Assembly (NCBI RefSeq): GCF_044647545.1
Contig: NZ_CP172818.1
DNA from: Escherichia coli
GTDB lineage: Bacteria; Pseudomonadota; Gammaproteobacteria; Enterobacterales; Enterobacteriaceae
Direction: 5' to 3' (one strand)
Length of the DNA: 64,000 bases
A program made the position numbers and the translations under genes. The notes below the pieces were generated by a model. It was not told where the DNA came from, made no database searches, and saw only the letters and a program-made list of their open reading frames with translations. How positions within the stretch are numbered: the first letter of the stretch is position 1; each line of letters starts with the position of its first letter. This document shows positions 23,932 through 24,645 of this stretch, piece after piece.

Positions 23932-24645
23932 CCACGGGGTTGCCCTCCTTCCATCTCTCTCCTGTTCCTGCTCCCTCCCCCACCCCCCCCCAAAACCTCC
24001 CCCCACCAAAACCCAAACAAACCCCAACCCAAACAACCCCCCCCCCCCACCCACCCACACACACACCCCCACCCAGAAAAGAACGACCCAGACCAGCCAC
24101 GACAGCCCCGGCCGCCGCCGGCGCCCGGCGCGCGGGCCGCCGACACCCGCTCCGCGCCACACCATGAGTGATCAGACGACAGGGACGGCGGCGGCAGCGC
24201 CCAAAGCGTCAACCAGGCGCAGGCAAGCTGCACGCCGCGTGTGCCGAGGGATTTCACCGCGCAAAGCCACCGCCAGGCCGTCGTCACGGAGCCGCGGCAT
24301 AGGGCAGACAGGGAGTCCGCGCCACCGACGGCCGCGATGCCGCATGCCAAGTGCGTGACATCAGACGTGCAGCGCCACACGAAGCTCGTAGCCGTCTGTC
24401 GTGCTAGTGAGACATCAGCGCGCGTTAGCACCGCAGCCCCATGTCGCGCCTCCCCCCCGCCTCCGGCGCCCCCCTGTCCACCCGCCCCCCCGTCCCCCGG
24501 CACCGGGCCGCGCGCGGCCCCCGCGCGGCCCCCCACCCCCCCCCCCCGGGCGGGCGCGGCCCCCGACAGCCCGCCCGGCCCGGCCCCCCCGCGCCCGGCC
24601 CAGGGGGGGGGGGGGGGGGGGGGGGGGGGGCCCAGACCGGGGGCA
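23932..24645. other. Anomalous GC-rich low-complexity segment with long C and G homopolymers (artifact or foreign/synthetic insert; not E. coli-like)
   Basis: C runs at 23973-23981, 24037-24048 and 24536-24547; G run of ~28 nt at 24603-24630; abrupt composition change against both flanks. Confidence 0.8.

What the first reader, a model, noticed from the sequence alone, without database searches (positions are those of the whole stretch)
23932..24645. About 0.7 kb of extremely GC-rich, homopolymer-laden sequence embedded in an otherwise normal E. coli locus
Composition changes abruptly at ~23932 and again at ~24645. The segment has C runs of 9-12 nt (23973-23981, 24037-24048, 24536-24547), CA/CCA microrepeats and a ~28-nt G run (24603-24630). 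Its six-frame ORFs translate to P/G/A/R low-complexity strings, with no RBS or E. coli-like codon usage. The left junction falls inside cyuP and the right junction abuts an AT-rich gene tail. This is not what native E. coli intergenic or coding DNA looks like. Candidate explanations: assembly or base-calling artifact (poly-G is a known two-colour sequencing artifact), a chimeric contaminating read, or a deliberately engineered/synthetic filler. If real, the G28 and C12 tracts would be extreme slippage and G-quadruplex/i-motif hotspots.
Basis: seen in the sequence. Interest (0 to 1): 0.7.

Follow-up and report, generated by a model that had tools for sequence, protein, structure and literature searches.

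The report
Corrupted sequence replacing an IS1 element
The odd GC-rich 0.7 kb is not real biology: it is a corrupted stretch of the sequence record, sitting where related E. coli carry an ordinary IS1 insertion, and its readable middle is a base-dropout copy of the K-12 version of the tdcE gene.

Summary
Window 23939-24643 is about 75% GC and 8% T, and it holds the only homopolymers of 9 nt or more in the 64 kb (C9, C12, C12, G28).

It is not a genetic element. Its flanks (the cyuP 3' remnant and the yhaC 3' remnant) are joined in four complete E. coli genomes by a 768-bp IS1. The window follows those genomes to within 7 nt on the left, and on the right it keeps the last 7 nt of IS1 (CATTACC).

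The central 380 nt (24121-24500) are an ordered subsequence of tdcE nt 383-970: 378 matches, 2 mismatches, 208 bases missing, none inserted. Base retention is C 93%, G 72%, A 58%, T 28%, and it fades towards both ends into noise built from two of the four bases and then G28. tdcE lies natively between cyuP and yhaC, but this lineage has deleted it. At all 16 informative sites the remnant carries the K-12 allele, not the lineage's.

Every large insertion of this lineage relative to K-12 is missing or garbled in the window.

Best reading: an in-silico artefact of building or patching the sequence on a K-12-type template. The string was found in none of the public collections searched. Interest is low.

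The parts
23546..23938 (-). 3' remnant of cyuP (amino-acid permease), intact apart from a single missing A at 23925
   Evidence: Identical to the truncated permease pseudogene of NZ_AP022098.1 and to native cyuP. Its 115-aa product is on 151 public contigs.
23939..24120 (.). Low-complexity noise (C/T, then C/A, then C/G blocks, with C9 and C12 runs); no recoverable template
   Evidence: Composition by bins. No signal above the null in deletion, substitution or dropout alignments against IS1, the native tdc region or the rest of the window.
24121..24500 (-). Base-dropout copy of tdcE nt 383-970 (K-12 coordinates about 3,260,506-3,261,093), K-12 allele, in native orientation with the gene on the minus strand
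   Evidence: BLAST core 24203-24423 has E = 6e-21 against 28 Gb. 378 matches, 2 mismatches, 208 missing and 0 inserted against K-12 tdcE, versus 50 mismatches against pflB. None of 836 null segments reaches the scores: z = 12.9 for the core, 5.7 and 2.7 for the left and right extensions. Retention is C 0.93, G 0.72, A 0.58, T 0.28. 16 of 16 informative sites carry the K-12 allele.
24501..24602 (.). C/G-only noise with a C12 run
   Evidence: no template signal.
24603..24630 (.). G28 homopolymer
24631..24643 (.). Short noise stretch leading into the IS1 end
24644..24650 (.). Last 7 nt of IS1 (CATTACC), the only surviving piece of the element that belongs here
   Evidence: The IS1-bearing relatives read ...GGCACCATTACC|GAAAGCG, whereas native yhaC reads ...AAAGATTAT|GAAAGCG.
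24651..24893 (+). 3' remnant of yhaC
   Evidence: Identical to the annotated partial CDS in NZ_AP022098.1 and to the tail of full-length yhaC in L003.

Best explanation
The segment is an in-silico artefact of how this sequence record was built, not DNA present in the bacterium.

The real strain has the genotype cyuA - cyuP' - IS1 (768 bp) - yhaC' - rnpB. In this genotype an IS1-mediated deletion removed the whole tdc operon.

The record appears to have been reconstructed or patched on a K-12-type template (a reference-guided consensus, polishing or gap fill). Sequence the strain has but K-12 lacks could not be represented. That covers IS1, a 5.3-kb fimbrial operon, 2.3 kb of the aga cluster, and 75 nt at the yra site. 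Template sequence the strain lacks (the 12.3-kb tdc region) had essentially no read support and was mostly removed. What was left is a residue: a stretch of K-12 tdcE in its native place and orientation, thinned by a base-dependent, position-dependent dropout (C kept, T mostly lost). The residue fades on both sides into homopolymer and two-letter noise that ends in G28.

Shown here: the IS1 junction, the tdcE origin, the K-12 allele, the dropout statistics, the missing insertions, and the absence from the public collections searched.

Inferred: that the cause is a reference-templated consensus or polishing step, and which software or chemistry produced the base-specific dropout.
For: Site:
- Four complete genomes join the same flanks through IS1.
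- The window keeps the IS1 terminal CATTACC, whereas native yhaC reads AGATTAT there.

Origin of the centre:
- tdcE hit at E = 6e-21.
- 378 of 380 bases form an ordered subsequence of tdcE with no insertions.
- The empirical null is never reached in 836 trials.
- Native orientation.

K-12 template:
- 16 of 16 informative sites carry the K-12 allele rather than that of FDAARGOS_497, whose flanks are 99.98-100% identical to the window.

Non-biological pattern:
- 208 separate losses in 588 nt, with retention C 0.93 > G 0.72 > A 0.58 > T 0.28 and no dependence on context.

K-12-like structure with the lineage's own alleles:
- The exuR/exuT empty site has no contiguous match above 94.9% in 5,422 genomes, while 112 genomes match at 99% or more only in pieces.
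- The aga junction lies at the same dinucleotide as in K-12.
- The yra-site and dolP-yraQ patches follow K-12's indel state.
- K-12 states at 13492 and 13503-5 lie within 70 nt of a breakpoint.
- Small indels relative to K-12 are nonetheless called correctly.
- Elsewhere the window is 99.9-100% identical to its lineage.

Absence elsewhere.

Literature: mapping onto an E. coli reference such as MG1655 drops unmapped sequence and alters the assembly (10.1101/2023.09.15.557405).
Against: - The source record and its assembly method could not be identified, so the pipeline is inferred.
- A plain mapping consensus would not by itself produce a base-specific dropout from a perfect digital template. 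Some noisy step has to be assumed, such as a neural or POA polisher working at near-zero coverage, or a poor read.
- The 323-nt yhaC tail, only 89% identical to K-12, is reproduced perfectly, and 7 nt of IS1 survive. The process was therefore not a naive per-position consensus.
- One GenBank chromosome (CP147423.1) shares the aga junction and a short yra-site allele. Those two clean junctions could therefore be natural rather than reference-imposed.
- The outer 325 nt cannot be traced to any template.
Confidence: 0.6

Rival explanations
1. A single very poor read (a failing Sanger read or a low-quality long-read segment) from contaminating K-12-derived laboratory DNA was used to bridge the contig gap left by the IS1 repeat. 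The dye- or channel-specific signal loss of that read produced the T>A>G>C dropout and the homopolymer runs.
For: The block is about 705 nt, one read length, with the best fidelity in the middle and decay to noise at both ends. Errors are deletions only and base-specific, as expected from missed peaks or pulses. The allele is K-12. Contigs normally break at IS1 in draft assemblies (L016 ends inside IS1).
Against: A random contaminant read would land on a gene native to this 12.3-kb interval, in the native orientation, with a chance of only about 0.1% (12.3 kb of about 5 Mb, times one half). This rival does not explain the other K-12-like structural states and small garbled patches.
Confidence: 0.15
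2. The stretch was generated or altered purely in silico after assembly, for example as output of a generative or neural sequence model filling a masked repeat, or as a deliberately planted filler. K-12 tdcE would then be partially 'recalled' because it is what usually follows cyuP.
For: - Successive restricted-alphabet blocks (C/T, C/A, C/G, G) look like degenerate model output.
- The replaced span equals IS1, shifted by 7 nt.
- The K-12 allele sits in the native place and orientation.
- Neither the segment's ORF products nor a source contig was found: the exact products tested are absent from the 15-billion-protein collection, and the only contig longer than 20 kb carrying a diagnostic neighbouring protein is CP147423.1, which is not the source.
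- The window matches no RefSeq complete genome across the site.
Against: The rest of the window is 99.9-100% identical to a real lineage over stretches of 10-20 kb. The other anomalies follow the logic of read mapping onto a reference: small indels are kept and large insertions are lost. No tool here can separate this rival from a neural polisher artefact.
Confidence: 0.2
3. The segment is a badly degraded copy of the IS1 that belongs at this site.
For: Same position and similar length, 705 versus 768 nt. The IS1 terminus is retained. The centre has a local alignment score of 29 to IS1 in the correct orientation, against a maximum of 21-25 in the nulls.
Against: tdcE accounts for 378 of the 380 central bases. 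IS1 is not special in the LCS or dropout alignments: 111 of 312 null segments reach its LCS value, and 33 and 79 of 416 reach its dropout scores. The outer parts show no IS1 signal.
Confidence: 0.02
4. The segment is real DNA in the isolate: a foreign GC-rich insertion, an engineered filler, or a G-quadruplex/i-motif-prone element.
For: None beyond its presence in the window.
Against: No known mutational process removes 72% of T and 42% of A from one strand of a gene fragment through 208 separate small deletions with only 2 substitutions. There is no match in plasmids or phages other than tdcE. It is absent from every other collection searched. Rfam gives no match. The allele is foreign to the lineage.
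Confidence: 0.015
5. The whole block is an Illumina two-colour chemistry artefact (dark cycles called as G, channel loss).
For: The G28 run fits the known poly-G 'no signal' artefact of two-colour chemistry (10.1101/2025.08.14.670389). Loss of one colour channel could in principle make C/G-only or C/A-only sequence.
Against: The decodable part shows deletions, not substitutions: 57 gaps against 12 mismatches in the BLAST core. No substitution mapping of the outer parts finds a template above the null. At 705 nt the block is longer than an Illumina read.
Confidence: 0.05

Closest known systems
Reference-guided (mapping-consensus or polished-on-reference) bacterial assemblies and their reference bias
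   Same: Large insertions absent from the reference are lost with clean junctions. Small indels and SNPs of the sample are called. Reference alleles persist where the sample gives no reads. Highly divergent blocks are garbled. The effect is described for E. coli mapped on MG1655 in 10.1101/2023.09.15.557405.
   Different: Uncovered reference is normally left intact, written as N, or cleanly deleted. Here a residue survives with a base-specific dropout and homopolymer noise, which needs an additional noisy consensus step that I could not identify.
Repeat-induced gaps at IS elements and their erroneous gap filling
   Same: The corrupted span coincides, to within 7 nt at each end, with a 768-bp IS1, the classic place where short-read contigs break (L016).
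   Different: The filler is derived not from IS1 but from a gene that the strain has deleted.
Poly-G 'no signal' artefact of two-colour Illumina chemistry
   Same: A G28 run ends the block. The artefact is documented in 10.1101/2025.08.14.670389.
   Different: It accounts for 28 of about 705 nt at most. The rest shows deletion-type errors and C-rich noise.
IS1-mediated adjacent deletion (the real biology of the locus)
   Same: The relatives H1-H4 carry cyuP'-IS1-yhaC' with the tdc operon gone. Other strains show independent IS1 events in the same interval.
   Different: This describes the underlying genome, not the anomalous sequence, which retains only 7 nt of the element.

Membership tests
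IS1 insertion sequence | About 768 bp with terminal inverted repeats of about 23 bp at both ends | tested here: not met
   Only the last 7 nt (CATTACC) are present. The left end and even 7 nt of flanking cyuP are replaced.
IS1 insertion sequence | insA/insB' reading frames (InsAB' transposase made by frameshifting) | tested here: not met
   The ORFs in the segment encode P/G/A/R-rich strings. There is no significant IS1 signal in the LCS or dropout alignments.
tdcE (2-ketobutyrate/pyruvate formate-lyase gene) | Nucleotide derivation from tdcE rather than from its paralogue pflB | tested here: met
   378 matches and 2 mismatches against tdcE, versus 327 matches and 50 mismatches against pflB; E = 6e-21.
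tdcE (2-ketobutyrate/pyruvate formate-lyase gene) | An intact or at least frame-preserving coding sequence | tested here: not met
   208 of 588 bases are missing in many separate gaps (57 gap positions in the 278-nt BLAST core alone), so no reading frame survives.
Reference-guided assembly artefact (K-12-type template) | Sample insertions relative to the reference are absent | tested here: met
   Four of four are missing or garbled: the 5.3-kb fimbrial operon, 2.3 kb of agaW-agaA, the 768-bp IS1, and 75 nt at the yra site. Caveat: CP147423.1 shares two of these states.
Reference-guided assembly artefact (K-12-type template) | Reference alleles appear where the sample has no sequence | tested here: met
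   16 of 16 informative tdcE sites carry the K-12 allele rather than the lineage allele. K-12 states at 13492 and 13503-5 lie next to a breakpoint.
Reference-guided assembly artefact (K-12-type template) | Documented assembly method and read support | not testable with these tools
   The source record was not found in any collection.
Two-colour Illumina poly-G artefact | A G run caused by dark cycles | tested here: met
   G28 at 24603-24630.
Two-colour Illumina poly-G artefact | Substitution-type errors within one read length, with no indels | tested here: not met
   The errors are dominated by deletions, the block is about 705 nt, and substitution decoding failed.
Genuine genomic island, vector or foreign GC-rich DNA | Homologues in other genomes, plasmids or phages | tested here: not met
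   Only tdcE is hit. The exact 41-mer is absent from three contig collections.
Structured RNA gene or regulatory element | A match to a curated RNA family | tested here: not met
   Only rnpB at 25033-25409 is found; there is nothing in 23939-24643.

The most novel reading that the evidence does not exclude
The sequence is physically present in the isolate. On this reading, a fragment of K-12-type tdcE was acquired and then subjected to an unknown strand-specific process that removes T and A. It would sit between hyper-slippery C12 and G28 tracts at an IS1 junction.
Probability: 0.01. Interest if true: 0.7.

Novelty: not a real feature. Interest (0 to 1): 0.05.

Why it matters
The main value is as quality control. 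The record misrepresents a real and ordinary locus, an IS1-mediated deletion of the tdc operon. It also creates spurious P/G/A/R-rich ORFs fused to the cyuP and yhaC remnants.

The same window appears to have lost two accessory gene blocks, a 5.3-kb fimbrial operon and agaW-agaA, and it contains two further small garbled patches. Gene-content, pseudogene or repeat analyses that use this record would therefore be misled.

The forensic signature could be used to screen other records for template-derived filler. It has three parts: an ordered-subsequence match to a reference gene, reference alleles that are foreign to the lineage, and base-specific dropout. There is no new biology in the segment itself.

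Tried and rejected
1. Degraded IS1. A weak local similarity (score 29, z 4.5-6) was superseded by the tdcE match. LCS and dropout alignments show IS1 is not special.

2. Decoding the C/A-only and C/G-only outer parts. I tried deleting the missing letters from candidate templates and all four substitution mappings, including those expected from loss of a two-colour channel. Candidates were the native tdc region, the IS1 locus and the rest of the window. Nothing rose above the null. Extending the tdcE alignment beyond 24121-24500 gave no signal either.

3. Cross-mapping of reads from the paralogue pflB. Retention is 0.64 where pflB agrees with tdcE and 0.65 where it differs (p = 0.92).

4. A merged consensus of tdcE and IS1 (LCS-like). 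The overall retention of 0.65 is close to the expected LCS fraction for random 4-letter sequences (a figure from my own knowledge). However, no IS1 bases are contributed and the LCS with IS1 is at the null level.

5. Foreign or vector origin. The plasmid and phage searches hit only tdcE.

6. Structured RNA. No match.

7. Finding the source record. Exact look-ups of ORF products failed: of the products spanning the odd segment, none is on record. A 41-mer scan of the genome, metagenome and viral contig collections found nothing. The nearest record by aga-junction protein, CP147423.1, is only 99.0% identical and has an intact tdc operon, so it is not the source.

8. Using Logan assemblies as near-identical controls for CP147423.1. 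They are only 98.5% identical, so this was uninformative.

Full report
**Observation**

The segment exists as described. Over 23932-24645 the composition is C 335, G 204, A 120, T 55 (75.5% GC, 7.7% T). GC in 200-nt windows jumps from about 0.52 to 0.60-0.87 and drops to 0.32-0.47 immediately afterwards. The only homopolymers of 9 nt or more in the whole 64 kb are here: C9 at 23983-23991, C12 at 24037-24048, C12 at 24536-24547 and G28 at 24603-24630. The block passes through restricted alphabets in turn: C/T, C/A, C/G, a near-normal centre, C/G, then G only. Its ORFs encode P/G/A/R-rich strings. Rfam finds nothing in it on either strand; the only real hit nearby is rnpB at 25033-25409.

**What belongs at this site**

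The flanks are cyuA and the 3' part of cyuP on the left, and the 3' tail of yhaC, then rnpB and garK, on the right. Four complete genomes (for example NZ_AP022098.1) join exactly these flanks through a 768-bp IS1, with the whole tdc operon missing.

Base by base, the window agrees with them up to 23938, which is 7 nt before the IS1 end. It agrees again from 24644 onward. Positions 24644-24650 read CATTACC, the last 7 nt of IS1, whereas native yhaC reads AGATTAT there. The underlying strain therefore has the cyuP'-IS1-yhaC' deletion genotype. About 768 nt of true sequence (7 nt of cyuP plus 761 nt of IS1) have been replaced by 705 nt of something else. A further single A is missing at 23925.

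Outside this block the window is 99.9-100% identical to that lineage over stretches of 6-21 kb, so the damage is local.

**What the replacement is**

A sensitive BLAST of the segment against 5,426 complete genomes unexpectedly hit tdcE: window 24203-24423, 75% identity, E = 6e-21. It lies in the same orientation that tdcE has natively between cyuP and yhaC. The alignment has 209 matches, 12 mismatches, 57 missing bases and no insertions. T is lost or changed far more often than any other base.

With a scoring scheme that tolerates losses, the match extends to 24121-24500. These 380 nt are an ordered subsequence of tdcE nt 383-970: 378 matches, 2 mismatches, 208 reference bases missing and none inserted. 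The paralogue pflB gives 50 mismatches.

Such alignments are easy to obtain by chance, so I scored 836 unrelated E. coli segments the same way. None reached the observed scores. The core gave z = 12.9, the left extension z = 5.7 and the right extension z = 2.7.

Retention is C 93%, G 72%, A 58% and T 28%. It is highest (0.82-0.87) around 24319-24420 and fades in both directions. It does not depend on the preceding base or on agreement with pflB. The outer parts, 23939-24120 and 24501-24643, carry no recoverable template under deletion, substitution or dropout models.

**Why it cannot be real DNA**

- Two hundred and eight separate small deletions in 588 nt, with only two substitutions and a strict base hierarchy on one strand, match no replication or repair process that I know of (inference).
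- The segment is absent from all complete E. coli genomes.
- Plasmids and phages give only tdcE hits.
- A diagnostic 41-mer is absent from the reference-genome, metagenome and viral contig collections.
- The longest-start products of the four ORFs tested across it are absent from about 15 billion public proteins, while the adjacent truncated cyuP product is on 151 contigs.

**Where the tdcE remnant comes from**

The strain's lineage has deleted tdcE. A close relative that still has the operon (FDAARGOS_497) has flanks 99.98-100% identical to the window. It differs from K-12 at 20 sites within the 588-nt stretch. Sixteen of those sites are retained in the window, and all 16 carry the K-12 allele. 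This includes one site where K-12 also differs from strain E2865. The template is therefore a K-12-type tdcE, placed where K-12 has it and in K-12's orientation. A random contaminant fragment would fall in this 12.3-kb interval in the right orientation only about once in a thousand.

**Other signs of a K-12-type template in the window**

- The 5.3-kb CS1-type fimbrial operon between exuR and exuT is cleanly absent. The 112 complete genomes that match these alleles at 99% or more do so only in separate pieces, not as one contiguous match. The best contiguous match to the window's junction is only 94.9%.
- Within 70 nt of that junction, the window's only two differences from its lineage are K-12 states.
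- The 2.3-kb agaW-agaA segment is absent, with the junction at exactly the same dinucleotide as in K-12 but with the lineage's alleles. Contiguous matches are K-12-like genomes at 98.4% or less.
- At the yra site, 108 nt of lineage sequence are reduced to about 23 nt with G and C runs. What remains corresponds to the parts alignable to K-12.
- In the divergent dolP-yraQ spacer, the patch 46393-46443 keeps lineage substitutions but follows K-12's indel state. It is unique: the best of 5,424 genomes is 95.1% identical there.
- Small indels relative to K-12 are called correctly.

This is the behaviour expected when reads are laid on a reference: SNPs and micro-indels are recovered, large insertions are lost, and reference sequence persists where there are no reads. 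The effect is described for E. coli on MG1655 in 10.1101/2023.09.15.557405.

One caveat applies. The GenBank chromosome CP147423.1 (4.55 Mb, intact tdc operon, 99.0% identical to the window) shares the aga junction and a short yra-site allele. Those two states might therefore be natural. That record is not the source.

**Mechanism and its uncertainty**

I consider it about 97% certain that 23939-24643 is not present in the organism.

The most likely cause (about 0.6) is a reference-templated consensus, polishing or gap-fill step on a K-12-type genome. At near-zero support over the deleted tdc region, that step discarded most template positions and left a thinned residue plus noise. What produced the base-specific dropout and the restricted-alphabet noise is not established.

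The rivals are:
- A single failing read from K-12-derived contaminant DNA used to bridge the IS1 gap (0.15). The block has the length of one read, with its best fidelity in the middle.
- Purely in-silico generation or planting (0.2).
- The two-colour poly-G artefact (10.1101/2025.08.14.670389). It can explain the G28 run but not the deletion-type errors or the 705-nt length.
- A degraded IS1. This is essentially excluded, although a local similarity score of 29 to IS1, above nulls of 21-25, remains a minor unexplained oddity.

**Comparison with what is known, and verdict**

The real biology is an ordinary IS1-mediated adjacent deletion. The interval between cyuP and yhaC has been hit by IS1 independently several times. 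The anomalous sequence belongs to known classes of record artefact: repeat-associated gap filling and reference bias, with a poly-G tail. It is not a member of any biological family. It fails the defining features of IS1, of a functional tdcE, of a foreign island and of any Rfam family.

Novelty: not a real feature. Interest is low (0.05). Its practical value is as a warning about this record and as a screening signature for template-derived filler.

Noticed in passing
window 41797-41819: A second garbled patch, at the site where K-12 has the yraHIJK fimbrial operon. The lineage has 108 nt here and CP147423.1 has 45 nt. The window has about 23 nt (TTGGGGCAACGCCCACACTCTCCCCC) that read as a T/A-dropout version of the short allele with added G and C runs.
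   Followed up: yes
window 46393-46443 (dolP-yraQ intergenic hairpin region): A third small corrupted patch: 6 bases lost (mostly T) and 6 substitutions in 50 nt relative to the lineage. The best of 5,424 complete genomes is only 95.1% identical over 241 nt, while the flanks are about 100% identical. The indel state follows K-12, and the block has K-12's length of 111 nt rather than the lineage's 117.
   Followed up: yes
window 13436/13437 (exuR-exuT intergenic), also 13492 and 13503-13505: A 5.3-kb CS1-type fimbrial operon (chaperone, major subunit, usher-like protein, tip adhesin) is cleanly absent. The complete genomes that match these alleles at 99% or more do so only in separate pieces, and no complete genome joins the alleles contiguously (best 94.9%). 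The two nearby differences from the lineage are K-12 states.
   Followed up: yes
window 35884-35893 (agaW'/agaA' junction): A K-12-type 2.3-kb deletion (the 3' part of agaW, agaE, agaF and the 5' part of agaA) at exactly the K-12 junction dinucleotide, but with non-K-12 alleles. Among public records it is shared only with CP147423.1. The exact 133-aa junction product is listed on 2 contigs.
   Followed up: yes
window 24945-25030 (between the yhaC tail and rnpB): Seven bases (CACTATG) present in the lineage are missing at 24950. The roughly 35-nt terminator-like hairpin CTCCAAAAGCAAAAACCCGCCGAAGCGGGTTTTTA occurs twice, 5 nt apart, whereas the lineage has one copy. K-12 has three such copies, within 113-nt tandem repeats.
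   Followed up: partly
L018/L020/L023 = CP147423.1 (GCA_037201865.1): A 4.55-Mb GenBank E. coli chromosome, smaller than K-12. kbaZ is called in two fragments there, and garP is called as a 367-aa fragment that also occurs in other assemblies. It has the K-12-type aga junction, and its yra-site allele equals only the K-12-alignable parts of the lineage allele. It may itself be a reference-templated record. Testing this against Logan assemblies was inconclusive because they are only 98.5% identical.
   Followed up: partly
L001, L002, L010, L015, L016 (cyuP-yhaC interval in other genomes): IS1 has hit this interval independently several times:
- the H1-H4 junction;
- an inverted IS1 at another site in strain E138;
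- a 93%-identical IS1 variant with a different deletion end-point in GCA_900608105.1;
- a simple insertion with a target-site duplication and an intact tdc operon in GCA_047261835.1;
- a draft contig that ends inside IS1.
This points to a hot spot for IS1 insertion and IS1-mediated loss of the tdc operon.
   Followed up: partly
window 24248-24445 versus IS1 nt 195-385: A local alignment score of 29 to IS1, in the orientation IS1 has in the relatives. This is above 200 dinucleotide shuffles (maximum 24-25), above 330 genomic segments (maximum 21) and above native tdcE (18). Yet tdcE accounts for 378 of the 380 central bases (24121-24500), which include this stretch. The oddity is unexplained and probably due to chance.
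   Followed up: partly
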